From: a virus
Taxonomy: Duplodnaviria; Heunggongvirae; Uroviricota; Caudoviricetes
Strand: one strand, 5' to 3'
DNA: 32,447 bases
IMG/VR virus record: IMGVR_UViG_2585427783_000005
The first letter of the stretch is position 1, and each line of letters begins with the position of its first letter. Position numbers and translations under genes: made by a program. The notes beneath the pieces were generated by a model, which was not told the origin of the DNA, did no database searches, and was given only the letters and a program-made list of their open reading frames with translations. Shown here one piece after another: positions 1 through 27,260 of the stretch.

Positions 1-452
1 AACACCAGCAAACAGATAAAAAAGGGCCAGCCAATTGGCCAGCCCTTCTTAACAGGATGTCGCTTAAGCGAAATCTTAGTTAAGACGCTCCCAATAAAAC
101 CACATAAAAAACATATAATTATAATAAAAACAATTAGTTAATTTAATTTTTAATGCAGTGAATTGCAATATTCTGCAACCTCCGCCGCCACTTTGCCGCC
201 ACTTAAAGCTTTATACCACACAGACTTTAGTATACCCGAGTGAAACGCTAACACATGAGGTAGTTGGAAAATTTCCGTATATGTTGTAATATTGATACGC
301 ATTATATGATTTTTACCTGATATAATGTAATTATTAGCTTCAAAATTATTTTTGCACGAATCAGGTATTACCAAGTAGTTGTCAGTTTTTAAAAACCCAA
401 CATCCTAAAATTAGCATTGTTTTTTAACCACAAAACATCCACGGAGAAGAAC

Positions 453-1262
453 GTGTCAAAAAAGGATACAATCCAGATTATCGATATCAGGATGCAGAGA
501 CCAATCATAGCAAGAATAGAAGAAGAAAATTTAAATTTGACATTGCAAATGTCAGATAAAGCCACATTATCTGGTGCGACAGTTAGTTTTTTCACCCCAA
601 ATAACGTTTCTATATTCTTATCCTCAGCAAAAAAAGAGCTCTCAAAATCCAATTCTATATATAAAAGTCTTTTTGGAAAAATACACAAAACCAAACATAA
701 AAACTTTAAAATTTCCGACAAAGCCCTGCCGAGACTCTATAATTACTTTGAATCAATTCAGACGGCCATTATTTCTATGTATACTGCAATTGAGTCTTTT
801 GCAAATATATGCATACCACATGATTATGTTTATGAAAAAAACAATGCCAAGGGAATCAAAGAATCCTATAGCAAAGAGCTAATTGAGCGATATATACCAA
901 CAAGTGAAAAAATAGATAAAATCCTACCGTCTATTTTAAATTGTGATTCACCTAAAGGTTCAAAACTATGGCAAGATTTTAAAAGCCTTGAGTCACTTAG
1001 AAATGACATAATTCACCCCAAGACAACAAAGAAAAACACAGAAACAAAAGAAGACTCATCTTTTTTATGCATTTTACTATCAGATGACTTTATAAAAAAA
1101 GTTTCCTGTGGATTTGATTTGGTATCTTATTTTTGCAAACAAGACACTACTCATAGTCTTTTCCCAATGGGTTTCGGTGAAATTGAACTTAAACCTGTCC
1201 CAATTAAAGCCGGTGACTTTGAAAAAGTTGATGATCATGATGAAATAGAATTACCATCATAA
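453..1262 (+). CDS. AT-rich hypothetical protein with Rx4H (HEPN-like) motif; possible Abi-type cargo gene
   Basis: Long ORF (track 417..1262, TTG at 417); GTG at 453 has GGAG 9 nt upstream. Lys/Asn-rich, much lower GC than the prophage backbone. Motif LESLRNDIIHP. Start codon uncertain (ATG 492 also possible). Confidence 0.5.
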   Translation: MSKKDTIQIIDIRMQRPIIARIEEENLNLTLQMSDKATLSGATVSFFTPNNVSIFLSSAKKELSKSNSIYKSLFGKIHKTKHKNFKISDKALPRLYNYFESIQTAIISMYTAIESFANICIPHDYVYEKNNAKGIKESYSKELIERYIPTSEKIDKILPSILNCDSPKGSKLWQDFKSLESLRNDIIHPKTTKKNTETKEDSSFLCILLSDDFIKKVSCGFDLVSYFCKQDTTHSLFPMGFGEIELKPVPIKAGDFEKVDDHDEIELPS

Positions 1263-1378: not shown

Positions 1379-2419
1379 TTAATCTTTCCATTTAAAACCA
1401 TTACATAATGTTAAAGGATTAAATGTTACAGCCTCCTCAAGATGATCCGGGGAGAAATGTGCATACTTCATAGTTTCACGAATATTCGCATGACCGAGTA
1501 TACGTTGCAGCACAAGAATATTCCCGCCATTCATCATAAAATGAGCGCCGAAGGTATGACGCAGAACGTGTGTCTTTTGCCCTTCCGTCAGTTCGATATC
1601 CGTTAGTTTGAGCATCTTTTTAAACTCCTGATAGCAAGGCTTAAACATCTTTCCCTGCCTTTCAGATAATTCGTCATACAACCATTTTGGGATCGGAACG
1701 GTTCGATTCTTTTTCCCTTTCGTTTTGGTGAAGGTCAGTTTATGTGGCGAGAGCTGGGGACGTGTCAACCTCTCAGCCTCACCCCATCTAGCACCTGTTG
1801 CAAGACAAATCTTAACAATCATGGTGAGGTCTTCTTTTCCGTATTGCTCGCATGCCTGAAACAATTTCGGAATTTGAGACAAAGTGAGCCAAGACATTTC
1901 TTTCTCGGCTTCCTTGAAAACACGGACTCCATCAAGTGGATTTGGTAAGCTCCACTCCCCTAGCCTTTTGAGCTCATTAAATACAGCCTCAAGATATTGT
2001 TGCTCACGATTGACAGTTATCGGTTTAGCAATCCATTTTGCCGGGTCTTTATGATAGCCATTATCTATCTCCCCCCGAAGTCGGCGGTCACGGTAATGAG
2101 CCCAATCTTTAGCAGTAAGGCGGGATGCAATAGGGTCACCAAGTCCATTACACACGATTTGAAGTTTAGCTAACCGCGACTTACTGGCGACCAGTGCCTG
2201 TCCGTGTAAATTATGCCAAAGCTGGATAATCTCACTTAAGCGTCGGCGGTCTTCTTTCTTGCCGAGCCACGGCTTATCCTCACTCTCACTTTTCGTAAAT
2301 GCTTCGAATGCCTCGGCCTCACCTTTGGTATTGAATTGCCGACGTATACGCCGCCCTTCTCGACCATTTGGATAGAGCTCGCATAACCATTTGCCATTTT
2401 TTTGCTTACTTACAGTCAT
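1379..2419 (-). CDS. int: Tyrosine integrase, P2/186 type
   Basis: 346 aa; C-terminal catalytic region VLRHTFGAHFMMNGGNILVLQRILGHANIRETMKYAH (R...HxxR...Y); lies beside the repressor gene as in P2/186 prophages. Confidence 0.9.
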   Translation of the reverse strand: MTVSKQKNGKWLCELYPNGREGRRIRRQFNTKGEAEAFEAFTKSESEDKPWLGKKEDRRRLSEIIQLWHNLHGQALVASKSRLAKLQIVCNGLGDPIASRLTAKDWAHYRDRRLRGEIDNGYHKDPAKWIAKPITVNREQQYLEAVFNELKRLGEWSLPNPLDGVRVFKEAEKEMSWLTLSQIPKLFQACEQYGKEDLTMIVKICLATGARWGEAERLTRPQLSPHKLTFTKTKGKKNRTVPIPKWLYDELSERQGKMFKPCYQEFKKMLKLTDIELTEGQKTHVLRHTFGAHFMMNGGNILVLQRILGHANIRETMKYAHFSPDHLEEAVTFNPLTLCNGFKWKD

Positions 2420-2441
2420 AATGTCACCGAGGCAACTCTAA

Positions 2442-2780
2442 TTATTCCCAAAGTGCTGTTGCAGCATCCATTACAGGATCCAAAGGAATTTTTACGCCTG
2501 CATACTCCGGGCTATCTTTCCAAACAGTATCAATATTGCTCCCCTCAAGCTTTCCAGACTTTACTCCATCAATCGCAAAACCATTTAATGGGTATCGGTC
2601 ATCTGTTGCTTTGTCGTACACAAAGGCATATTTACCGTTGACACAAGACACCGTAGCTTTTTCAAAAGTTAACGGCCAATCCTCACCAAACTTAGCGCCA
2701 TCTAAATCCTGTGTTTTTTCAGCGGCTGAGGCTCCAAAAGAAAGGGTAAGAAGCAGAGCTAAAAAGAGTTTACATTTCAT
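2442..2780 (-). CDS. Small secreted/periplasmic protein of unknown function, inserted between cI and int
   Basis: ATG at 2778-2780 (revcomp) with AAGGGA RBS; N-terminus MKCKLFLALLLTLSFGASAAEKT is a typical Sec signal peptide; mature part ~90 aa. Track ORF 2442..2852 has a longer, unlikely N-terminus. Confidence 0.7.
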   Translation of the reverse strand: MKCKLFLALLLTLSFGASAAEKTQDLDGAKFGEDWPLTFEKATVSCVNGKYAFVYDKATDDRYPLNGFAIDGVKSGKLEGSNIDTVWKDSPEYAGVKIPLDPVMDAATALWE

Positions 2781-2788
2781 AATGTCCC

Positions 2789-3649
2789 TTACACGTGTTT
2801 TTCCAATGTGAAAACTACAGCCCCGGCAGGAGTAATGTCTGTAATGTTGCATTCAAACTCAGCAGACTTATTTGACAACCTGACTTTTCCACCGGGCAAG
2901 CGAATTACATCAAAAACATCAAGAGCGCCGTCGATATCAATTAACCAGCGACCATTACTTATATTCGAAGCAGAACAGTCGACAAGCCAAGAGGCAGCTA
3001 CACCGTCAACAAAAATCAATTCCCCTGAGTTAGAAGGAATCATTGAGGGGTCAGGATGCCACGTTCCTGCATCCTTAAGCTCACCAGATTCAAGACGAGA
3101 TTTTTTAATAGAAAAACCAGATGTGACATCTTCCCTGTTAGCTCGCATTTGCCCCTTGCCTGTTGCTAACCATTCCAGTGACGTATCGGTATCAAGAGCG
3201 CATGTAACAACAACATCACCAGGGAAAAAATCTCGCCTTACCCATGTGCTAATTGTGCCAGAGGAAATGCCGAGCAAATCACCGAGCTCCTTTTGCATGG
3301 TAAAGCCATACGCATCAAGAATCCTACGCAAAACGGTTTTACCACCATTCGTCATAATCTCGTCATAAAGCTCTTTGCCTTTTAACTTGCAACTGGCTCG
3401 CTCGTGATTTGCATTTGCAAGTTCTCCATTTACAAGCCAATTGATATCAGCTCCCGTGTCAAGACAACACCTAACTATGACATTGCCAGGTATTGCATCA
3501 CGCTGAACCCAGCCGCTAACGCTGTGTTTAGCGATACCTAGCAGGTCAGCCAAATCCTTTTGCATCTTGACCCCATAGGCTGACATTAAGCGTTCCAATA
3601 CGCCGTTCGTTGCACTAACACGCCACTGAACATCAAGCTCAGAACTCAT
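2789..3649 (-). CDS. cI: CI-type immunity repressor (186-like) with tandemly duplicated N-terminal HTH domain
   Basis: 286 aa. Two homologous modules (VLERLMSAYGVKMQKDLADLLGIAKHSVSGWVQRDAIPGNVIVRCCLDTGADINWLVNGE / VLRRILDAYGFTMQKELGDLLGISSGTISTWVRRDFFPGDVVVTCALDTDTSLEWLATGK), then a C-terminal domain resembling the 186 CI oligomerisation domain. Divergent from the early operon. Confidence 0.85.
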   Translation of the reverse strand: MSSELDVQWRVSATNGVLERLMSAYGVKMQKDLADLLGIAKHSVSGWVQRDAIPGNVIVRCCLDTGADINWLVNGELANANHERASCKLKGKELYDEIMTNGGKTVLRRILDAYGFTMQKELGDLLGISSGTISTWVRRDFFPGDVVVTCALDTDTSLEWLATGKGQMRANREDVTSGFSIKKSRLESGELKDAGTWHPDPSMIPSNSGELIFVDGVAASWLVDCSASNISNGRWLIDIDGALDVFDVIRLPGGKVRLSNKSAEFECNITDITPAGAVVFTLEKHV

Positions 3650-3678
3650 AAAAACCCCTACAGATAATTTTATGGGTG

Positions 3679-3707
3679 TTTACAGAAAACTTTTTACGAT
3701 CTATAGT
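3679..3707 (+). promoter_or_regulatory. Candidate sigma70 early (lytic, pR-like) promoter in the cI/apl switch region
   Basis: TTTACA (3679-3684), 17-nt spacer, TATAGT (3702-3707); ~60 nt upstream of the AGGAG RBS and ATG at 3771. Confidence 0.5.
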
Positions 3708-3770
3708 GGCATTCATCGACCAAGATGCACACCACTGCACTACATTTCAAACAACAGGAGATAATGCGAT

Positions 3771-4142
3771 ATGTCAGATGCAAAATCAATCTCGACGCAC
3801 GACTCGCAAAACTCACAAAATCAAACTGTGCTGCTAGATCCAACACAGTTTGATGCCATCGTTACCGCCATGCTGCCAGCTCTACAGACAATGATTCGCT
3901 CCGCTATGTCAGACACGATGACTGTGAAAGACTTCGCCGCTACTCGCGGTGTTAGCGAGCGTCTGGTCTGGCAATGGCTCGATGAGGGAGTCCTTCTCAA
4001 AGCTCCGACCAAAGACTTTTCCAACAAAGAAGAAGCTGCTAAACGAAGCCGAACCCTCGTAAACGTAAAAGCATGGCGCGATAAGCTGACTCAACAAGCG
4101 ATTGATTGTCGCTACATCGACCAGCGCACCGCTCTTAACTGA
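3771..4142 (+). CDS. Putative Cox/Apl-like DNA-binding regulator/excisionase (first gene of early operon)
   Basis: ATG at 3771 with AGGAG RBS; HTH-like segment MTVKDFAATRGVSERLVWQWLDEGVL; position equivalent to 186 apl / P2 cox. Longer than Apl/Cox (123 aa), so the call is positional. Confidence 0.45.
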   Translation: MSDAKSISTHDSQNSQNQTVLLDPTQFDAIVTAMLPALQTMIRSAMSDTMTVKDFAATRGVSERLVWQWLDEGVLLKAPTKDFSNKEEAAKRSRTLVNVKAWRDKLTQQAIDCRYIDQRTALN

Positions 4143-9764: not shown

Positions 9765-10769
9765 CTAATTTACATGTATGTAGAGTTCACCGTCGCCAGA
9801 CCAATCGGGACACTCTAAAACAAGCCCAAACTGCTTGAATATTTCATCAATGATTATTGTTATCTCCCGAAAATCACCAAAACCTGTAATGTGCTGGTCA
9901 TTAAACTTCCCATAAAGATTCTGAAAAGCAATGCCTAATTCTGATAATTGATATCTTATCTTTGAGTTGGATAGTGTAAGGGATAGCTTTGGATCGTATT
10001 CTTTAATATTGATGTTTAGAGAATGGACATAACCCATCGCATAAGCATAAGAGTTGATGATTAGCCTGATACGTTTTTTTACTTCAAGATACATGTCATT
10101 CAGAGAAATATTACCGTACTTATAACCCCAGATGAGTTTTTCAATCTCGTCAGATACTTCATTTACAACAGTGTCAAGATTCTCTAAAAATAAATCGACA
10201 GTTTCTTGAGGGGCAGACCCCGAAGACATGTAATTAGCGAGATATTCAGACCATGCACGCGTGGCTGAGATAAGAAGCGCGCTACCATACTCGTTGACTG
10301 TAAAGTTTTGGGCTAAGCATGTTAGTAAGTTTTTTTCATGTACGTGCACTAATTCATGGTGAATGCGATGGATGACTGCGAGGTATCCTTCTTCTTTCAG
10401 TTTTAAGAAGCTACCATCATTGAAAAGCTCAACAAAAAAATCAATCGATAGCACAAGGGTATATTCTTCATATAGCCCATCATTGCCAATTTTTGTTACT
10501 AACTGCCCGACGGCTGCGCCCTGTTTGCTATTGGTAAATGAACTAGGGGATTTGTGTTGGTAAGAGGATGTTACCTTTTGAAGAGCTTCACTGAAGTTAT
10601 AGGAAACAATCACGCATTTTAATTTGGAGATATCAAGATTGAGATTCTTTGTTAAAGCTCGGATAGCTTCTAGTGTGAAATTACCGATATTATTTGCTTC
10701 TTGCTCAGTAGCGAAACCTTCGAGGGTTATTTTAAAATCAGTTTCCAAAATATTAATCTCCGCGCCCAT
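9765..10769 (-). CDS. AT-rich hypothetical protein with HExxH motif (possible metal-dependent hydrolase); accessory gene between cos and Q
   Basis: 334 aa ORF, ATG at 10767-10769 (revcomp); IHRIHHELVHVHE motif; strongly AT-rich relative to flanking phage genes; no recognisable P2 homolog. Confidence 0.6.
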   Translation of the reverse strand: MGAEINILETDFKITLEGFATEQEANNIGNFTLEAIRALTKNLNLDISKLKCVIVSYNFSEALQKVTSSYQHKSPSSFTNSKQGAAVGQLVTKIGNDGLYEEYTLVLSIDFFVELFNDGSFLKLKEEGYLAVIHRIHHELVHVHEKNLLTCLAQNFTVNEYGSALLISATRAWSEYLANYMSSGSAPQETVDLFLENLDTVVNEVSDEIEKLIWGYKYGNISLNDMYLEVKKRIRLIINSYAYAMGYVHSLNINIKEYDPKLSLTLSNSKIRYQLSELGIAFQNLYGKFNDQHITGFGDFREITIIIDEIFKQFGLVLECPDWSGDGELYIHVN

Positions 10770-19718: not shown

Positions 19719-20594
19719 CTAGCCTCGTAAATATCGTTTAGTAAATTTCGTGTTTGGTCTGGATGATAGGATTTGTCTTTCTATTTCACTATCACAGTCT
19801 ATATAGTCTAGTGTATTAGCTTCTATAAGTTTGTTCACGTCAATATTTTTTGCATCGATTATGTTGGCATTTCTAAGGTTTGCATTGGTGTATTCCACTT
19901 TATCCAAATCACACTCTCTGAGTACGCAACTTTTCATTTCCGCATTGGAAAAATCCCCACCATATAAATAGCAGCCTTCAAAAATAACACCGTTTAACTT
20001 TGAATCCTGAGCTTTAATATTTTTTATTTTACACTTTATAAATTTTACGTTTTTCATTTTGCTCTTGCTAATATTTAATGCCTGGATTGTACATCCAGTG
20101 AAAGAACAGTCTCTTATGTTAGATTTTTCCATATTTAACCCAGATAGTTCTGAGGTTTTAAAGTGTAAGTATTTAATGGTAAAAAGGTCACCCAACTCCA
20201 TTCTGGGTATGTCTATATTGAAGACACCTTTATTGTTGAGCTGTCTTATTATTTTTATTTTTTGTATTTTCAAATCAACATTAACGTGCTTAGCTAAGTT
20301 TCCCAAATCCTCAAGAAGTTCATTAATCGTTTCTTTGTTTTGTCTTCTGTATTCAAAGTAATAAAGGATGACACCTAATACAAAAAAATCCAAAATGGAT
20401 GAATTTGCATTTATTAGGAACCCAGACAGGAATGAATCATTGTAATTACCATAGTGTATAGAGGCAAGTGTTACGCCAAATGCATATAAAATAAAAATAA
20501 TAAACACGTGCTTCATTTTGCATAAGGATTGTATTATTGGTTTTATGGCATCAATTTTGTTCATTGCTGCAGCAGCGAAAGATTTAAAAGTCAT
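19719..20594 (-). CDS. Membrane-anchored pentapeptide-repeat protein (moron between S and V, antisense to late genes)
   Basis: 291 aa; two N-terminal hydrophobic helices (VFIIFILYAFGVTLASI, ILDFFVLGVILYYF); C-terminal five-residue periodicity (SNIRD CSFTG CTIQA LNISK ... ANLRN ANIID); strongly AT-rich. Start codon uncertain (no clear RBS). Confidence 0.7.
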   Translation of the reverse strand: MTFKSFAAAAMNKIDAIKPIIQSLCKMKHVFIIFILYAFGVTLASIHYGNYNDSFLSGFLINANSSILDFFVLGVILYYFEYRRQNKETINELLEDLGNLAKHVNVDLKIQKIKIIRQLNNKGVFNIDIPRMELGDLFTIKYLHFKTSELSGLNMEKSNIRDCSFTGCTIQALNISKSKMKNVKFIKCKIKNIKAQDSKLNGVIFEGCYLYGGDFSNAEMKSCVLRECDLDKVEYTNANLRNANIIDAKNIDVNKLIEANTLDYIDCDSEIERQILSSRPNTKFTKRYLRG

Positions 20595-21733: not shown

Positions 21734-22642
21734 ATGGCAACCGTTGACCTGAGTCAGTTACCCGTTCCCGATGTGGTTGAGGAACTGGACTATGAAACTA
21801 TCCTTGCGGAACGCATTGCGACGCTGATTTCGCTCTATCCCGAAGACCAGCAGGAGGCCATTGCCCGGACGCTCACACTTGAGTCAGAGCCGATTGTTAA
21901 GCTGCTGCAGGAAAACGCCTACCGTGAAGTTATCTGGCGTCAGCGGGTGAACGAAGCCGCGCAGGCGGTGACGCTGGCCTACTCCGCCGGTAACGACCTC
22001 GACGTCGTAGCCGGGAACAATAATACCGAACGCCTGACCATCACCCCGGCGGATGATACCACCATCCCGCCGACACCTGCCGTTATGGAATCTGATACCG
22101 ACCTGCGACTGCGCACGCAACAGGCGTTTGAGGGATTGAGCGTGGCGGGTCCGGTCGGTGCATATGAGTATCACGGCCGCAGCGCCGACGGGCGGGTCGC
22201 TGACGTTTCGGTCGCCAGCCCGTCGCCAGCCTGCGTGACGATTACCGTGCTATCGCGTGAGGGGGACGGCACTGCCAGCCCTGAGCTACTGGCGATTGTT
22301 GATAAAGCGCTGAACGCCGAAGATGTGCGCCCGGTAGCTGACCGGGTGACCGTCCAGTCAGCCGAGATTGTGCCGTACCAGATTGACGCGACGATCTACG
22401 TTTACCCCGGCCCCGAATCTGAACCCATCAGGCAGGCGTCAGAGCAGAAGTTGCAGAGCTACATCAGCGCGCAGCACCGCCTCGGGCGTGATATCCGTCT
22501 GTCAGCCATTTATGCGGCGCTGCATGTTGAGGGGGTGCAGCGTGTCGAGCTGACATCACCGCAGGCCGACATAGTGCTGAGTAAGTCGCAGGCGTCGAAC
22601 TGTACCGAGTACCAGATAACTATCGGGGGCTCGGATGAATGA
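21734..22642 (+). CDS. J: Baseplate protein J
   Basis: 302 aa, same as P2 gpJ. Confidence 0.9.
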   Translation: MATVDLSQLPVPDVVEELDYETILAERIATLISLYPEDQQEAIARTLTLESEPIVKLLQENAYREVIWRQRVNEAAQAVTLAYSAGNDLDVVAGNNNTERLTITPADDTTIPPTPAVMESDTDLRLRTQQAFEGLSVAGPVGAYEYHGRSADGRVADVSVASPSPACVTITVLSREGDGTASPELLAIVDKALNAEDVRPVADRVTVQSAEIVPYQIDATIYVYPGPESEPIRQASEQKLQSYISAQHRLGRDIRLSAIYAALHVEGVQRVELTSPQADIVLSKSQASNCTEYQITIGGSDE

Positions 22643-23243
22643 CCGGCTATTACCCGTTGGCTCGTCGCCGCTGGAGGTTGCCGCCGCTGCCGCGCTCTCT
22701 GAGATTCAGCGTGTGCCGGTACCGCTGCGCACTCTGTGGAACTGGCGCACCTGCCCGGTAAAACTGCTGCCGTATCTGGCGTGGGCGCTGTCGGTCGACA
22801 GGTGGGATGAGAAATGGCCGGAGGCGACAAAGCGTAGCGTCTGCGCGTCCTCGTTTTTCGTCCATCAGCACAAAGGCACCATTAGCGCATTGCGTCGGGT
22901 GGTTGAGCCGCTCGGCTTTCTGATTGAAGTGCGCGAGTGGTGGCAGCTCAACGAGGAGCCAGGCACATTCCGCCTCGTTGTCGGCGTGCTCGATAGCGGC
23001 ATTACTGACGAAATGTATCAGGAGCTTGAGCGCCTGATTGAAGACGCCAAACCGGCAAGTCGCCACCTGACCGGGCTGGCTATCAGTCTGAGCTCGACCG
23101 GCGAACTGTATGTCGGCGCGGGATGCTATCACGGCGACGCGCTGACTGTTTACCCCTACACCCCCGAGGAGATTGTCGTCGGCGGTGAATATTACCCGGC
23201 CTCGGCCATCCATTTGATTGATAACCTGAGAGTGAACGCATGA
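22635..23243 (+). CDS. I: Baseplate/tail protein I
   Basis: 202 aa; overlaps the J stop and H start as in P2. Confidence 0.85.
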   Translation: MNDRLLPVGSSPLEVAAAAALSEIQRVPVPLRTLWNWRTCPVKLLPYLAWALSVDRWDEKWPEATKRSVCASSFFVHQHKGTISALRRVVEPLGFLIEVREWWQLNEEPGTFRLVVGVLDSGITDEMYQELERLIEDAKPASRHLTGLAISLSSTGELYVGAGCYHGDALTVYPYTPEEIVVGGEYYPASAIHLIDNLRVNA

Positions 23244-24157
23244 CCGCAAAATATTTTGCCATTCTGACCAATCAGGGCGCGGCGCGGCTGGCGAACGCGG
23301 CGGCACTCGGTACCAAACTCAACCTGACGCAGATGGCCGTCGGTGATGCGAATGGTACGTTGCCGACCCCTGACCCGGCGCAGACGAAGCTCATTAACCA
23401 GAAACGCATCGCGCCGCTGAACCTGCTGACCGTTGACCCGGCCAATACCAGTCAGATTATCGCGGAACAGATTATTCCCGAGAATGAAGGTGGTTTCTGG
23501 ATCCGCGAGATTGGTCTCTATGACGATGATGGTATTCTGATTGCCGTGGCGAACTGTCCGGAGACCTACAAGCCACAACTGCAGGAGGGAAGCGGTCGCA
23601 CGCAGACCATTCGCATGATTCTGATTGTGTCGAGCACATCGGCAATCACCCTGAAAATCGACCCGGCAGTCGTGCTGGCAACGCGCCAGTATGTCGACGA
23701 CAAGATTATCGAGGTGAAAGGATATGCTGATGACCTGATGAAAAAACATGTTGAGGCCGCCAATCCACACAAGCAGTACCCGTTAATCGCTAATGCTCTG
23801 AAAGAAATGGTTGACGCGGGACTGGCCGGCGACGTTCTTAAAAACCTTGGTTTAAGAGCAAGCGGGCAGTACACCGATAATTTGTTATTTACAGGTCCTG
23901 ATGGTCTTAAGATTCAGGTGTTTCGCCGGACGCTCGCAAATTTGACTACTGTCGGTGTAGTAAATTCTGTGCCAGTGACTTTCCCTGTCCCGTTCCCTGT
24001 TAATTGCTGGGGCGTTTTTTCTACCAAATTAACATGGGTTCAGATAACTAACTCATGCGAGTGGGTAAGCAATACAGGATTTACCGCTCAGGTCATGATG
24101 AATATTGCTGTAAATACAAACACCTCAGACGCTATGTTTTTAGCTATAGGATATTAA
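23240..24157 (+). CDS. H: Tail fibre protein (short form; conserved N-terminus plus invertible C-terminal domain)
   Basis: 305 aa; N-terminus (AVGDANGTLP..., IPENEGGFWIREIGLYDDDGILIAVANCPETYKP) resembles the P2 gpH N-terminus; C-terminal part lies inside the predicted invertible segment. Confidence 0.85.
   Translation: MTAKYFAILTNQGAARLANAAALGTKLNLTQMAVGDANGTLPTPDPAQTKLINQKRIAPLNLLTVDPANTSQIIAEQIIPENEGGFWIREIGLYDDDGILIAVANCPETYKPQLQEGSGRTQTIRMILIVSSTSAITLKIDPAVVLATRQYVDDKIIEVKGYADDLMKKHVEAANPHKQYPLIANALKEMVDAGLAGDVLKNLGLRASGQYTDNLLFTGPDGLKIQVFRRTLANLTTVGVVNSVPVTFPVPFPVNCWGVFSTKLTWVQITNSCEWVSNTGFTAQVMMNIAVNTNTSDAMFLAIGY
23835..23858. repeat. Left recombination (crossover) site of invertible tail-fibre segment (hix/gix-like)
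   Basis: TTCTTAAAAACCTTGGTTTAAGAG resembles hixL as recalled; inverted relative to the right site. Confidence 0.6.
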
Positions 24158-24158
24158 T

Positions 24159-24599
24159 ATGAATCGTTTTGTGTTCAGTCCATCTGAGTCCCGTTTTTAT
24201 GCCATCGAGTGGCAGGCTGATTATGTTGATAATAATTGTTGGCCACATGATGCCATTAACGTTAGTGACAGCATTTATTATGAGTTTTCCGGCACTCCCC
24301 CTACAGGTAAGCAACTTATAACTTTAAATAACATGCCAGCATGGGGTGATATTCCTCCACCTACACGAGAAGAATTAATTGTCGCTGCTGATGTGGAGAA
24401 GCAAAAAAGAATAGATTTAGCCAATGATTACATGAACGGTAAGCAATGGCCTGGTAAAGCAGCTATTGGTCGTCTGAAAGGTGAGGAACTGGCACAATAT
24501 AATTTGTGGCTGGATTATCTGGACGCACTGGAGCTGGTCGATACCGCCAGTGCGCCAGATATTGAATGGCCTACGCCTCCGGCAGTTCAGGCCAGATGA
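24159..24599 (+). CDS. G: Tail fibre assembly chaperone (expressed orientation)
   Basis: 146 aa; C-terminus ...SAPDIEWPTPP typical of the tail-fibre-assembly family. Confidence 0.85.
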   Translation: MNRFVFSPSESRFYAIEWQADYVDNNCWPHDAINVSDSIYYEFSGTPPTGKQLITLNNMPAWGDIPPPTREELIVAADVEKQKRIDLANDYMNGKQWPGKAAIGRLKGEELAQYNLWLDYLDALELVDTASAPDIEWPTPPAVQAR

Positions 24600-25173
24600 C
24601 ATCCGGCGCGGTGCTGGTATCTGTTGCCGTCACCGCGTCAATGTAATCCAGCACAGTGTTAAGGCTGGTTGTTTCTGCCTGCGTCAGTTTACGTCCGGCC
24701 TGCAATTTCAGCTGAATCAGACTGATTGAAGCCATTGCAGTATCAATCAGTGACTGGCGCTGTGCTTCTGCTGCATCTACTGCGGCGCTATGCTGTGCTT
24801 CGGTATCCGTCACCCATTTCTCACCATCCCATTTATCGTATGGCGTTAACGGGGCGATAGTGGTTGTATTATCAGGGTAATCACCCGGAGCTGTGATTTC
24901 TTTTGATTCTCCTGTTTCGGTGCTAAAGACGATTTCACCGCGATGGTCTGGCACATATTCCCATGAGTTAAAATCTACAGATCGGCAGATTGCATAACCA
25001 GCTTTGTATGTGCCAGGGGCATCTAAACAGGAATATGCAGGGATACCGACACCAACGGCAAGATATTCAGTTGATGTGGAAATATATTCCCGTGTTTCGC
25101 CATCATAGTTATAGACGGTAATATCCCCCGCCTTTGTAGCAATAAACTCGCTATTTAATACAGCGTTATCCAT
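24571..25173 (-). CDS. Alternative tail fibre assembly chaperone (inverted orientation)
   Basis: 200 aa on minus strand; C-terminus ...TAPDVIWPELPEA, paralogous to G; 3' ends of the two chaperone genes overlap convergently. Confidence 0.8.
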   Translation of the reverse strand: MDNAVLNSEFIATKAGDITVYNYDGETREYISTSTEYLAVGVGIPAYSCLDAPGTYKAGYAICRSVDFNSWEYVPDHRGEIVFSTETGESKEITAPGDYPDNTTTIAPLTPYDKWDGEKWVTDTEAQHSAAVDAAEAQRQSLIDTAMASISLIQLKLQAGRKLTQAETTSLNTVLDYIDAVTATDTSTAPDVIWPELPEA

Positions 25174-25670
25174 TATGCAGCCCTCACGATATAGTTAAAT
25201 GCAATATTCCGTGGACGGGTTTCATTTATCCCATATGCTGTTGTTCTCTGATTCCCGACAAAATATCCATTTGGATTAGAAGATACAGAATAATCATCAA
25301 AATCAAGTGGGCTATCAGCACCCGGCGTCAGGCTTGCAATATATCCTCTTCCCATAACTTCTGATGCTGGTATTTCTTTTGTACGATAATCACTAACTCT
25401 GAAGAGCTGCCCTTGGTGGGTGTGTGATTCCACTCCTCCATTCTGAAGACTTAGCAAGGCACGTACAGCATCAATACCACGCCCGTCATCCCAGCCACGA
25501 ATAAACTCACCACGTAAATCAGGCAATTTATTTGTCGGATAAGCCTTTGCCAGTTCCGGATATTCTTCAGCAGAAAAAGCGGCACCGTTGCATTTCAGCC
25601 AGCCTGTTGGCGGAGTGGCTGAAGGCCACGGAACAGGCACCCCAACCGGTAATGCAGAGCCTTCTCCCAA
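25173..25670 (-). CDS. Alternative tail-fibre C-terminal (receptor-binding) segment; promoterless, used only after inversion
   Basis: Minus-strand ORF without ATG start that begins at the right crossover site; LPDLRGEFIRGW and NETRPRNIAFNYIV tail-collar-like motifs. Confidence 0.7.
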   Translation of the reverse strand: MGEGSALPVGVPVPWPSATPPTGWLKCNGAAFSAEEYPELAKAYPTNKLPDLRGEFIRGWDDGRGIDAVRALLSLQNGGVESHTHQGQLFRVSDYRTKEIPASEVMGRGYIASLTPGADSPLDFDDYSVSSNPNGYFVGNQRTTAYGINETRPRNIAFNYIVRAA

Positions 25671-25688
25671 ACCAACCTTTTAGAAAAC
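25665..25688. repeat. Right recombination (crossover) site of invertible segment
   Basis: Reverse complement TTTTCTAAAAGGTTGGTTTGGGAG shares the AAAA-NN-TTGGTTT core with the left site. Confidence 0.55.
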
Positions 25689-25741: not shown

Positions 25742-25983
25742 ATGTTTATCGGTTATGTACGTGTATCAACAAATGACCAGAACACCGCATTACAGCGAAA
25801 TGAACTGGAGTGCGCAGGATGTGAGCTGATTTTCGAAGATAAAATCAGCGGCAAAACATCAGACTGGCCGGGCTAAAGAGGTTACTCAGAACCTTGTCAG
25901 AGGGCGATACGCTTGTGGTCTGGAAACTGGATCGCCTCGGGTATCTCAACGCTATACAAAAAATTTCCCGCATCCGTTGCTGA
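25742..25983 (+). pseudogene. Serine DNA invertase (Gin/Hin/Cin/Pin family) remnant: frameshifted and 3'-truncated
   Basis: MFIGYVRVSTNDQNTALQRNELECAGCELIFEDKISGK... stops after 44 codons (TAA 25874-25876); a -1 frame continues LKRLLRTLSEGDTLVVWKLDRLG then ends at 25983; the C-terminal ~110 aa including the HTH are absent. Confidence 0.8.
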
Positions 25984-26081
25984 TGTCTCAATGTGTCAGA
26001 CATCGCCCAACACTGACAAATAGCCCCTCAACAGACCAGCCAGGACAATAACACTCGCCCACTAACCACGGAGTTAACCGG

Positions 26082-27260
26082 ATGAGTGATTTTCACCACG
26101 GCGTGCAGGTGCTTGAGATTAACGACGGCACCCGCGTCATTTCCACTGTTGCAACCGCAATCGTCGGCATGGTCTGTACAGCCAGCGATGCGGATGCGGC
26201 AACCTTTCCCCTCAACGAGCCGGTACTGATTACCAATGTGCAAAGCGCCATTGCGAAAGCCGGTAAAAAAGGCACGCTGGCCGCGTCCCTGCAGGCCATC
26301 GCCGACCAGTCAAAACCTGTCACAGTTGTCGTGCGTGTTGCCGAAGGTACCGGAGAAGACGCCGAAGCGCAGACCATTTCCAATATCATCGGCGGCACGG
26401 ATGAGAACGGTAAATATACCGGCATCAAGGCGCTGTTGACTGCCGAAGCAGTCACCGGCGTTAAGCCGCGCATTCTCGGCGTGCCGGGTCTCGATACCAA
26501 AGAGGTCGCAGTCGCACTTGCTTCGGTCTGTATCAGCCTGCGCGCCTTTGGCTATATCAGCGCATGGGGTTGTAAAACCATTTCCGAGGCGATGGCCTAT
26601 CGCGAGAATTTCAGCCAGCGCGAGCTGATGGTCATCTGGCCTGATTTCCTTGCATGGGATACCACCACAAACGCCACCGCACCGGCATACGCAACTGCGC
26701 GCGCACTCGGCCTGCGTGCCTATATCGACCAGACCGTCGGCTGGCACAAAACCCTGTCTAACGTCGGCGTGCAGGGTGTTACCGGCATCAGTGCGTCAGT
26801 GTTTTGGGATTTGCAGGCATCCGGCACCGATGCTGATCTGCTCAACGAGGCCGGGGTCACGACACTGGTGCGTAAGGATGGCTTCCGCTTTTGGGGTAAC
26901 CGCACCTGCTCTGATGACCCGCTTTTCCTGTTTGAGAACTACACCCGCACCGCGCAGGTGCTGGCCGACACGATGGCCGAGGCGCACATGTGGGCGGTCG
27001 ATAAGCCCATCACCGCATCACTTATCCGTGACATTGTCGACGGCATTAACGCCAAATTCCGCGAGCTGAAATCAAACGGCTACATCGTGGACGGTGAATG
27101 CTGGTTCGACGAGGAATCGAACGATAAGGAAACCCTCAAGGCCGGGAAACTGTATATCGACTACGACTATACACCGGTTCCACCACTGGAAAGCCTGACC
27201 CTGCGCCAGCGTATCACCGATAAATATCTGGTGAATCTGTCCGAATCGGTCAACAGCTAA
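26082..27260 (+). CDS. FI: Tail sheath protein
   Basis: 392 aa; size and position match P2 gpFI. Confidence 0.9.
   Translation: MSDFHHGVQVLEINDGTRVISTVATAIVGMVCTASDADAATFPLNEPVLITNVQSAIAKAGKKGTLAASLQAIADQSKPVTVVVRVAEGTGEDAEAQTISNIIGGTDENGKYTGIKALLTAEAVTGVKPRILGVPGLDTKEVAVALASVCISLRAFGYISAWGCKTISEAMAYRENFSQRELMVIWPDFLAWDTTTNATAPAYATARALGLRAYIDQTVGWHKTLSNVGVQGVTGISASVFWDLQASGTDADLLNEAGVTTLVRKDGFRFWGNRTCSDDPLFLFENYTRTAQVLADTMAEAHMWAVDKPITASLIRDIVDGINAKFRELKSNGYIVDGECWFDEESNDKETLKAGKLYIDYDYTPVPPLESLTLRQRITDKYLVNLSESVNS

What the first reader, a model, noticed from the sequence alone, without database searches (positions are those of the whole stretch)
25742..25983. The cognate invertase is a frameshifted, truncated remnant, so the switch is probably frozen or trans-dependent
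The invertase reading frame begins with a canonical serine-recombinase N-terminus (GYVRVSTNDQ) but hits a stop after 44 codons. It resumes in the -1 frame for 36 codons (…GDTLVVWKLDRLG) and then ends, so the whole C-terminal catalytic and DNA-binding portion is missing. Inversion would then depend on a host or other-prophage invertase (Pin/Hin/Fin family) acting in trans. If none is present, host range is locked in the current orientation.
Basis: seen in the sequence. Interest (0 to 1): 0.55.

Follow-up and report, generated by a model that had tools for sequence, protein, structure and literature searches.

The report
Dead invertase, switch still flips
The gene that should flip this E. coli prophage's tail-fibre switch is a real, decayed pseudogene, but sister genomes show the switch still flips using invertases from other prophages, which is a known and ordinary situation.

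Summary
Window 25742-26023 is a decayed Gin/Pin-family serine invertase gene. It lies beside a 1829-bp invertible tail-fibre segment (23847-25675) of a P2/186-like prophage inserted between yfiB and rplS.

One G is lost from a GGGG run (25870-25872), giving a stop after codon 44. A 311-nt internal deletion, with its junction at 25939-25941, joins codon 67 to codon 171. The last 26 codons survive.

It is not an assembly error. About 35 of 5426 complete E. coli genomes carry the same deletion junction, and 14 are 100% identical over the first 199 nt.

The cis elements are intact: both 26-bp crossover sites, and the Fis enhancer inside the retained 5' end (25760-31).

The switch is not frozen in this lineage. 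Three pairs of near-identical remnant-bearing prophages differ by an exact inversion at the central dinucleotides. These genomes carry other invertase genes.

So the "trans-dependent" reading is supported. Whether this particular host holds a partner invertase cannot be tested from the window.

A direct precedent is published (EC958 Phi4), so novelty is low.

One side finding is more interesting. The window's segment is an e14 P segment (2 mismatches) swapped into the prophage exactly at the crossover cores.

The parts
23240..24157 (+). Tail-fibre gene in its current state. It joins a constant N-terminal part (23240-23846, P2 gpH-like) in frame to the variable cassette now at the left end of the segment (gp53-like C-terminal domain).
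   Evidence: ORF list. Pfam Phage_tail_fib N-terminal E=7e-63 and Gp53-like_C. The constant part is 99-100% identical across the remnant lineage up to the crossover site.
23835..23860 (.). Left 26-bp crossover site, TTCTTAAAAACC TT GGTTTAAGAGCA. The central dinucleotide TT is at 23847-23848.
   Evidence: Sequence and pattern search. In relatives, inversion breakpoints map to this dinucleotide.
23847..25675 (.). Invertible segment, 1829 bp. It holds two mirror-image sets, each with a fibre C-terminus and a tail-fibre assembly gene. It is 99.9% identical (2 mismatches) to the P segment of an e14 element.
24159..24599 (+). Tail-fibre assembly gene for the currently expressed cassette.
   Evidence: Pfam Caudo_TAP E=1e-26.
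24571..25173 (-). Tail-fibre assembly gene of the alternative cassette.
   Evidence: Pfam Caudo_TAP E=2e-32.
25173..25675 (-). Alternative fibre C-terminus (Collar domain). It has no promoter or start of its own and is silent in this orientation. After inversion it would be fused in frame at ..KNLGL|GEGSALPVG...
   Evidence: ORF list and Pfam Collar E=5e-16. In CH423 the homologous cassette is fused to give a 371-aa fibre.
25662..25687 (.). Right 26-bp crossover site, TTCTCCCAAACC AA CCTTTTAGAAAA. The central dinucleotide AA is at 25674-25675, the reverse complement of the left centre.
   Evidence: The centre lies 68 nt upstream of the ATG, against 68-69 nt in three intact loci.
25742..25876 (+). 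Invertase remnant, piece 1: codons 1-44 then a TAA stop. It includes the catalytic-serine motif YVRVST.
25760..25831 (.). Recombinational (Fis) enhancer equivalent. It has two 15-bp G...C Fis-type sites, at 25763-25777 (GTATCAACAAATGAC) and 25812-25826 (GCGCAGGATGTGAGC).
   Evidence: The P1 record annotates the cin enhancer at +19..+90 of cin. The window is 59/72 identical to it. Site I is identical to Mu gin and site II is identical to P1 cin and pro483. Function is inferred, not tested.
25870..25872 (+). G run that has lost one G (GGGG to GGG), which causes the frameshift.
   Evidence: Strain TK3888 keeps GGGG with the same large deletion. Strain 222 has GGGG plus an ATCA duplication.
25867..25941 (+). 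Invertase remnant, piece 2: codons 43-67 (PGLKRLLRTLSEGDTLVVWKLDRLG) in the -1 frame.
   Evidence: tblastn and frame translation.
25939..25941 (+). Junction of the 311-nt internal deletion. Codons 68-170 are lost: part of the catalytic domain, the oligomerisation helix and most of the DNA-binding domain.
   Evidence: The junction is identical in all five remnants compared.
25940..26023 (+). Invertase remnant, piece 3: the last 26 codons (GISTLYKKFPAS...TDK*), back in the frame of the ATG.
26082..27260 (+). Tail sheath gene, given as context. The gene order fibre, segment, invertase, sheath matches that of P2-like phages with intact invertases.

Best explanation
Window 25742-26023 is a true pseudogene of a Gin/Cin/Pin-family serine DNA invertase. 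It sits next to a Mu-G/e14-P-type invertible tail-fibre segment in a P2/186-like E. coli prophage.

Order of decay (shown): a 311-nt internal deletion came first. The 1-nt loss that creates the early stop came later.

Cis elements (sequence shown, function inferred): everything needed in cis survived. That means two 26-bp crossover sites with complementary central dinucleotides, and the Fis-binding enhancer, which lies inside the retained first 90 nt of the invertase gene about 95 bp from the right site.

Mechanism (shown comparatively in relatives, inferred for this window): the segment remains a competent substrate and is inverted by a related invertase made elsewhere in the cell. Candidates are another P2-like prophage, e14 PinE, or Qin/Rac PinQ/PinR. 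Each inversion swaps which fibre C-terminus and assembly protein are joined to the constant fibre N-terminus.

Consequence: host-range switching depends on the cell's other mobile elements, and is locked only in a host that has none.
For: - **Pseudogene anatomy:**
- **Not an artefact, and order of events:** the same junction occurs in about 35 complete genomes in three sub-variants, GGGG, GGG and GGGG+ATCA.
- **Cis elements:** crossover sites. The enhancer position comes from the P1 annotation, and the window's 72 bp is 52-63/72 identical to four homologues, with both Fis-type 15-mers intact. The site-to-ATG spacing is unchanged.
- **Inversion after invertase death, three verified pairs:**
  - CH425 vs CH423: 1867 bp exactly reverse-complemented, 0 mismatches, flanks 0/5673.
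  - Strain 222 vs 2779: 1544 bp, 0 mismatches, flanks 0/3396.
  - JKHS016 vs E1535: 1808 bp, 1 mismatch, flanks 0/2692. The window's flanks equal E1535's (0/2506 and 2/2500).
- **Not homologous recombination:** perfect inverted repeats are only 10-16 bp in those relatives.
- **Partner invertases exist:**
  - JKHS016 has a second P2-like prophage with an intact 197-aa invertase.
  - The CH42x strains have a second Gin-like locus.
  - All eight 222-lineage chromosomes gain exactly one extra matching place when pinR and pinL are added to the query.
- **Literature:** PinQ, 38% identical to PinE, inverts the e14 P segment in trans (PMC12529663). The EC958 Phi4 prophage has a truncated invertase yet inverts, which was attributed to trans action (PMC4134206).
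Against: - The host genome of this window is not available, so the presence of a partner invertase here is unproven.
- No read-level data show both orientations in this isolate.
- Enhancer function is inferred from sequence similarity and the P1 annotation only.
- The window's two inner half-sites differ (GGTTTAAGAGCA vs GGTTTGGGAGAA). That leaves only 7 bp of perfect inverted repeat, so the inversion rate could be low. The same pair does occur in both orientations in e14 contexts.
- The extra loci in the CH42x and 222 lineages were counted but not located, so I did not check that they are intact.
- Orientation differences between assemblies show that inversion happened. They do not show which enzyme did it.
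Confidence: 0.85

Rival explanations
1. Frozen switch. With its invertase dead, the segment in this host never inverts, and the fibre is locked in the present orientation (gp53-like cassette expressed).
For: - The resident invertase is certainly non-functional.
- No other invertase lies in the window.
- The window's two sites share only 7 bp of perfect inverted repeat (left-centre coordinate corrected to 23847 by hand).
Against: - The same backbone with the same remnant is found in both orientations (JKHS016 vs E1535), as are two other lineages.
- Gin-like or PinR-like genes are common in E. coli. The invertase 5' query matched 3580 of 5426 genomes, and adding pinR and pinL raised matching genomes from 2345 to 3772.
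- The window's segment itself came from e14, which implies recent contact with an e14/PinE-bearing genome.
Confidence: 0.1
2. Sequencing or assembly artefact. The gene is really intact, and the frameshift at 25870-25876 is a homopolymer error.
For: The frameshift lies in a short G run, which is a typical site for homopolymer errors.
Against: - Even with the G restored, the 311-nt deletion remains.
- Fourteen independent complete genomes are 100% identical over 25742-25940. About 35 share the junction, including variants with GGGG and with an ATCA duplication.
Confidence: 0.01
3. The inversions seen in relatives were made by RecA-dependent homologous recombination between the inverted repeats, not by a site-specific invertase. 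They would then say nothing about trans-acting invertases.
For: Inverted repeats are present at the segment ends.
Against: - Perfect repeats are only 10-16 bp in the relatives. From my own knowledge, that is below the length RecA needs.
- Breakpoints fall exactly at the central dinucleotide of canonical 26-bp crossover sites in all three pairs.
- The same sites are experimentally inverted by PinE and PinQ in e14.
Confidence: 0.03

Closest known systems
E. coli ST131 EC958 prophage Phi4: truncated DNA invertase with observed tail-fibre inversion (Forde et al. 2014, PMC4134206)
   Same: - A prophage tail-fibre invertible segment flanked by 26-bp crossover sites.
- The resident invertase is severely truncated and lacks the HTH domain.
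- Inversion is still seen, and was attributed to another prophage's invertase acting in trans.
   Different: - It is a different prophage and segment: 3106 bp, with crossover sites TTATCGAATACC TC GGTTTAC...
- The evidence there was mixed PacBio reads from one culture. Here it is orientation differences between near-clonal genomes.
- Here the lesion is an internal 311-nt deletion plus a frameshift.
e14 P segment with PinE, and trans inversion by Qin PinQ (Plasterk and van de Putte 1985; Kirigo et al. 2025, PMC12529663)
   Same: - The window's segment is 99.9% identical to an e14 P-segment variant.
- The right-hand inner repeat CCTTCTCCCAAACCAA is the one reported for K-12 e14.
- Trans inversion by a heterologous invertase is shown experimentally.
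   Different: - Here the segment sits in a P2/186-like prophage, fused to a P2 gpH-type fibre N-terminus.
- The adjacent invertase is dead, whereas e14 keeps pinE.
- The outer half-sites are those of the P2-like backbone.
Mu G segment/Gin and P1 C segment/Cin with the Fis-dependent enhancer inside the invertase gene
   Same: - The same overall design: a constant fibre part, two mirror-image variable cassettes with assembly genes, 26-bp sites, and an enhancer in the 5' coding region of the invertase.
- The remnant's first 44 residues are 77% identical to Gin.
   Different: - The invertase here is a pseudogene.
- The gene order is P2-like, with the invertase between the fibre module and the sheath gene.
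P2-like phages with intact invertases (pro483 KR073661; E. coli CUPS04 and JKHS016 second prophage, WP_341858296.1)
   Same: Identical gene order and the same distance from crossover centre to ATG, 68-69 nt.
   Different: They encode a complete 197-aa invertase. The window's copy is about 78-85% identical at nucleotide level and lacks 312 nt.
Salmonella Hin/Fin: two invertases serving one switch (Kutsukake et al. 2006; title seen in a reference list; content from my own knowledge)
   Same: An invertase from a P2-like prophage (Fels-2 Fin) acts in trans on a heterologous switch.
   Different: There the resident invertase Hin is intact, and the switch carries a promoter rather than fibre cassettes.

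Membership tests
Gin/Hin/Cin/Pin (Din) serine DNA invertases (functional enzyme) | N-terminal catalytic motif with the nucleophilic serine (Y-x-R-V-S-T) | tested here: met
   GYVRVSTNDQN is at codons 4-14. Pfam Resolvase E=2.8e-9. Residues 1-44 are 84% identical to PinE.
Gin/Hin/Cin/Pin (Din) serine DNA invertases (functional enzyme) | Single uninterrupted ORF of about 185-197 aa | tested here: not met
   There is a stop after codon 44, and three pieces lie in two frames.
Gin/Hin/Cin/Pin (Din) serine DNA invertases (functional enzyme) | Complete catalytic domain and oligomerisation helix (residues about 68-135, including the conserved R-x-x-R after LDRLG and the GRFFFHVMGALAEMERE helix) | tested here: not met
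   Codons 68-170 are removed by the 311-nt deletion. The retained part also carries substitutions at otherwise conserved positions: A21E, and R42W in the DRPG motif.
Gin/Hin/Cin/Pin (Din) serine DNA invertases (functional enzyme) | C-terminal helix-turn-helix DNA-binding domain | tested here: not met
   Only the last 26 codons (GISTLYKKFP...) remain. Pfam finds no HTH_7.
Din-type invertible tail-fibre segment (Mu G / P1 C / e14 P kind) | Two 26-bp crossover sites in inverted orientation with matching central dinucleotides | tested here: met
   Sites at 23835-23860 (centre TT) and 25662-25687 (centre AA).
Din-type invertible tail-fibre segment (Mu G / P1 C / e14 P kind) | Mirror-image alternative fibre C-termini with cognate assembly genes. 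One is fused in frame to a constant N-terminus and the other is silent. | tested here: met
   ORFs at 23240-24157 and 24159-24599 on the + strand, and at 24571-25173 and 25173-25670 on the - strand.
Din-type invertible tail-fibre segment (Mu G / P1 C / e14 P kind) | Fis-binding recombinational enhancer in cis | tested here: inconclusive
   The sequence equivalent is present and conserved (25760-25831). Fis binding and enhancer activity cannot be tested with these tools.
Din-type invertible tail-fibre segment (Mu G / P1 C / e14 P kind) | Both orientations occur in nature | tested here: met
   Three exact inversions were found between near-identical remnant-bearing prophages. This was not observed for the window's own isolate, for which there are no reads.
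Din-type invertible tail-fibre segment (Mu G / P1 C / e14 P kind) | A functional cognate invertase encoded next to the segment | tested here: not met
   The adjacent gene is a pseudogene. The function must be supplied in trans.

The most novel reading that the evidence does not exclude
The invertible segment in this window was not inherited with the prophage. A whole e14 P segment was swapped in by invertase-catalysed exchange at the two crossover cores, a natural recombinase-mediated cassette exchange between two prophages about 1.5 Mb apart. This happened after the resident invertase had died.

The evidence is in the junctions:
- The window is 99.95-99.97% identical to the JKHS016 and E1535 backbone up to 23853 and again from 25660.
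- It has only 2 mismatches in 1829 bp against an e14 element from 23847 to 25675.
- The switch points therefore coincide with the central dinucleotides on both sides.
- JKHS016-type segments likewise occur site-to-site in e14 contexts.

If this is right, Din invertases shuffle receptor-binding modules between unrelated prophages as well as flipping them, and orphan switches remain open to such imports.
Probability: 0.55. Interest if true: 0.5.

Novelty: already known. Interest (0 to 1): 0.25.

Why it matters
The finding matters mainly as a caution for annotation and for predicting phage host range. A dead invertase next to an invertible fibre segment does not mean the fibre is fixed. The switch's behaviour depends on which other prophages share the cell.

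This fits experimental work showing that heterologous Pin enzymes flip the e14 segment and thereby change phage sensitivity (PMC12529663). It also fits the EC958 Phi4 precedent (PMC4134206).

The part that could add something new is the clean evidence that entire invertible segments move between e14 and P2-like prophages, with breakpoints at the invertase cleavage sites. That would make crossover sites portable docking points for receptor-binding modules.

Tried and rejected
- **MAFFT alignment to pro483.** It scattered the large deletion into several gaps. I replaced it with affine-gap global alignments.
- **Generic inverted-repeat search.** It missed the crossover sites because only 7-16 bp are perfectly repeated. 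I found them by pattern and by eye.
- **Site coordinate.** I first placed the left site one base too far right.
- **Looking for e14 at icd in CH423 as the source of a trans invertase.** icd is intact and e14 is absent, so the second Gin-like locus of CH42x lies elsewhere and was not located.
- **Plasmid of strain 222.** In the first 50 kb of the 110-kb plasmid, I found only a 190-aa serine recombinase about 37% identical to Gin-family enzymes. It is unlikely to be the partner.
- **First chimeric query: anchor plus six invertase cores.** It failed because genomes with intact invertases next to sheath genes outranked the lineage. A redesigned query in the same mode as worked.
- **Ideas considered and rejected.** The 44-aa or 67-aa N-terminal peptide cannot be a functional recombinase, since it has no DNA-binding domain and no helix E. 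RecA-mediated inversion is unlikely because the repeats are too short. An assembly error is excluded.
- **Not used.** I judged the large protein databases and structure prediction unnecessary for this question.

Full report
**What is at the coordinates**

Window 21.7-32.4 kb is the tail module of a P2/186-like prophage. The gene order is:
- baseplate J (21734-22642)
- gpI (22635-23243)
- tail fibre (23240-24157)
- two convergent tail-fibre assembly genes (24159-24599 on +, 24571-25173 on -)
- a reversed fibre C-terminus (25173-25670 on -)
- the feature in question (25742 onward)
- sheath (26082-27260), tube and tape measure

The whole window matches a prophage that lies between yfiB and rplS in E. 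coli JKHS016, at 99.95% on the left and 99.97% on the right.

ORF 25742-25876 encodes MFIGYVRVSTNDQNTALQRNELECAGCELIFEDKISGKTSDWPG and then stops. Homology to invertases continues in the -1 frame to ...WKLDRLG at 25941. Pfam Resolvase matches with E=2.8e-9 for the 44 aa and 6e-20 for the repaired peptide.

**Exact lesions**

I compared the remnant with three intact genes: pro483, an e14-like pinE, and the CUPS04 P2-like invertase. I also compared it with the closest full-length relative, 30EVA2, which is 91% identical and itself frameshifted elsewhere. There are two lesions:
- One G is lost from a GGGG run at 25870-25872.
- A 311-nt internal deletion has its junction in CTCGGGTATC at 25939-25941. 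It joins codon 67 to codon 171.

The last 26 codons (GISTLYKKFPASVADVSMCQTSPNTDK*) survive at 25940-26023. Because 1 + 311 = 312, they are back in the frame of the ATG.

So the gene is internally deleted rather than simply truncated, and the feature extends to 26023. The retained part also carries changes at conserved positions (L2F, A21E, R42W in the DRPG motif). That fits relaxed constraint. tblastn finds no other invertase in the window.

**Not an artefact, and the order of events**

The 5' 199 nt have matches of at least 95% identity in 35 of 5426 complete E. coli genomes, and 14 are at 100%. PGAP annotates them as frameshifted or incomplete recombinase pseudogenes.

Aligned remnants share the same deletion junction but come in three sub-types:
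- GGGG with no frameshift (TK3888)
- GGG (the window, CH425, JKHS016)
- GGGG plus an ATCA duplication (strain 222)

The deletion therefore came first, and the frameshifts are later, independent decay. Re-sequencing is not needed.

**The switch itself**

The crossover sites are TTCTTAAAAACC TT GGTTTAAGAGCA (23835-23860) and TTCTCCCAAACC AA CCTTTTAGAAAA (25662-25687). Their central dinucleotides are complementary, as inversion requires. The segment between the centres is 1829 bp (23847-25675).

The centre of the right site lies 68 nt upstream of the ATG. The three intact loci have 68-69 nt.

The P1 GenBank record annotates the Cin enhancer at +19 to +90 of cin. The equivalent window stretch is 25760-25831. 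It is 59/72 identical to P1 and contains two G...C 15-mers at its ends:
- GTATCAACAAATGAC, identical to Mu gin
- GCGCAGGATGTGAGC, identical to P1 cin and pro483

Published work on Hin places a two-Fis-site enhancer about 100 bp from hixL (PMC3798978). Here the first site is about 95 bp from the crossover centre. Both lesions lie downstream of this stretch. All recognisable cis elements are therefore intact. Their function is inferred, not tested.

**Does the switch still flip? Three pairs of relatives**

Three pairs of near-identical, remnant-bearing prophages differ only by an exact inversion between the central dinucleotides.

| Pair | Segment inverted | Mismatches in segment | Flank mismatches |
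|---|---|---|---|
| CH425 vs CH423 (same hospital; genome sizes differ by 5 bp) | 1867 bp | 0 | 0/5673 |
| Strain 222 vs strain 2779 | 1544 bp | 0 | 0/3396 |
| JKHS016 vs E1535 | 1808 bp | 1 | 0/2692 |

- In the 222 lineage, strains 222, 103 and 5283 have one orientation and five other genomes have the other.
- E1535's flanks are identical to the window's (0/2506 and 2/2500).

Perfect inverted repeats at the ends are only 10-16 bp in these relatives and 7 bp in the window (the window value was re-derived by hand from the corrected centre). From my own knowledge, homologous recombination is an unlikely cause at that length.

The deletion junction is shared, so these inversions post-date the death of the invertase. 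The 'frozen' reading is therefore contradicted for this lineage.

**Who supplies the enzyme**

- JKHS016 carries a second P2-like prophage with an intact 197-aa invertase, next to a segment 97.5% identical to the window's.
- CH423, CH425 and CH458 each have a second Gin-like locus on the chromosome. It is not e14, because icd is uninterrupted there.
- The eight 222-lineage chromosomes show no second Gin-like locus. However, each gains exactly one extra matching place when K-12 pinR and phi80 pinL are appended to the otherwise identical query.

Kirigo et al. showed experimentally that PinQ, only 38% identical to PinE, inverts the e14 P segment in trans. The repeats there are TTGGTTTGGGAGAAGG and CCTTCTCCCAAACCAA, and the second is the sequence at the window's right site (PMC12529663). 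I did not locate the extra loci or check that they are intact.

The window's own host genome is unavailable. Whether a partner is present there is unknown.

**Comparison with what is known**

The situation is already published. Forde et al. found that E. coli EC958 prophage Phi4 has a severely truncated invertase lacking the HTH domain. PacBio reads nevertheless showed its fibre segment in both orientations, and they proposed trans action by another prophage's invertase (PMC4134206). Goldberg et al. documented inversion in e14 and in P2-like prophages by whole-genome sequencing (PMC4272514). From my own knowledge, cross-complementation among Gin, Cin, Pin and Hin has been known since the 1980s.

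The remnant fails the membership test for a functional invertase on three counts: it has no single ORF, a deleted catalytic core and no HTH. The locus does meet the structural tests for a Din-type invertible fibre segment that lacks its own enzyme.

**Side finding: segment replacement**

The window and JKHS016/E1535 share one backbone, but the DNA between the crossover sites is different. The window's segment is instead an e14 P-segment variant. It has 2 mismatches in 1829 bp against the e14 element at icd in strain 82.0311, which carries pinE.

The junctions are sharp:
- On the left, identity to the backbone runs to 23853 and identity to e14 starts at 23847.
- On the right, identity to e14 ends at 25675 and identity to the backbone starts at 25660.
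- The outer half-sites are the backbone's, and the centre plus inner half-sites are e14's.

JKHS016-type segments also occur site-to-site in e14 contexts. Flanking homology between e14 and this prophage is absent on the fibre side and only 74% on the invertase side.

The simplest reading is invertase-catalysed cassette exchange at the cleavage sites, probably after the resident gene had died. This is inference. The reciprocal product and the intermediates were not looked for.

**Verdict**

This is an ordinary, already-described situation and scores low for interest. The segment swap is a moderately interesting evolutionary footnote.

Noticed in passing
window 23847-25675 (junctions at 23847-23853 and 25660-25675): The whole invertible segment is an e14 P-segment variant, with 2 mismatches in 1829 bp against the e14 of strain 82.0311. 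It sits in a P2-like backbone that is otherwise 99.95% identical to JKHS016 and E1535, which carry a different segment. Both breakpoints coincide with the crossover-site cores, suggesting invertase-mediated cassette exchange between prophages.
   Followed up: partly
L010/L021 (E. coli 222 lineage, eight genomes); This lineage shows both segment orientations although blastn finds no second Gin-like gene on the chromosome. One pinR/pinQ- or pinL-like locus per chromosome is detected only when those genes are added to the query. Its position and whether it is intact were not determined.
   Followed up: partly
L008 3001-3554 (E. coli 30EVA2): The closest full-length relative of the remnant (91% nt identity) sits in a different prophage type, next to a tape-measure gene. 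It is itself frameshifted by a 1-nt loss in TGGAAACTGG. Decay of these invertase genes therefore seems to recur.
   Followed up: no
window 19719-20594 (- strand): A 291-aa pentapeptide-repeat protein (Pfam Pentapeptide_4, E=4e-19) is encoded on the opposite strand. It is inserted between the virion-morphogenesis and baseplate V genes of the late operon, so it looks like a moron. It has no PADLOC match.
   Followed up: partly
window 9765-10769 (- strand) and 417-1262 (+ strand): Two sizeable ORFs have no Pfam family. One lies next to the portal gene, a known variable hotspot in P2-like phages. The other lies just outside the integrase end of the prophage and has a weak PADLOC hit to a DRT-associated HEPN model (E=1e-4), which may be chance.
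   Followed up: partly
L012 (phage record ON470592.1, vB_EcoM-613R3, locus 3582-3896): A deposited phage genome record carries the 222-type remnant, annotated there as a 104-aa 'DNA invertase'. This is likely an over-annotation. It also hints that remnant-bearing prophages may still form phage particles.
   Followed up: no
window 24571-24599: The two convergent tail-fibre assembly genes overlap by 29 nt at their 3' ends. This central region (24441-24852) is the only part of the segment conserved between the window's segment and JKHS016's (93% identity).
   Followed up: no
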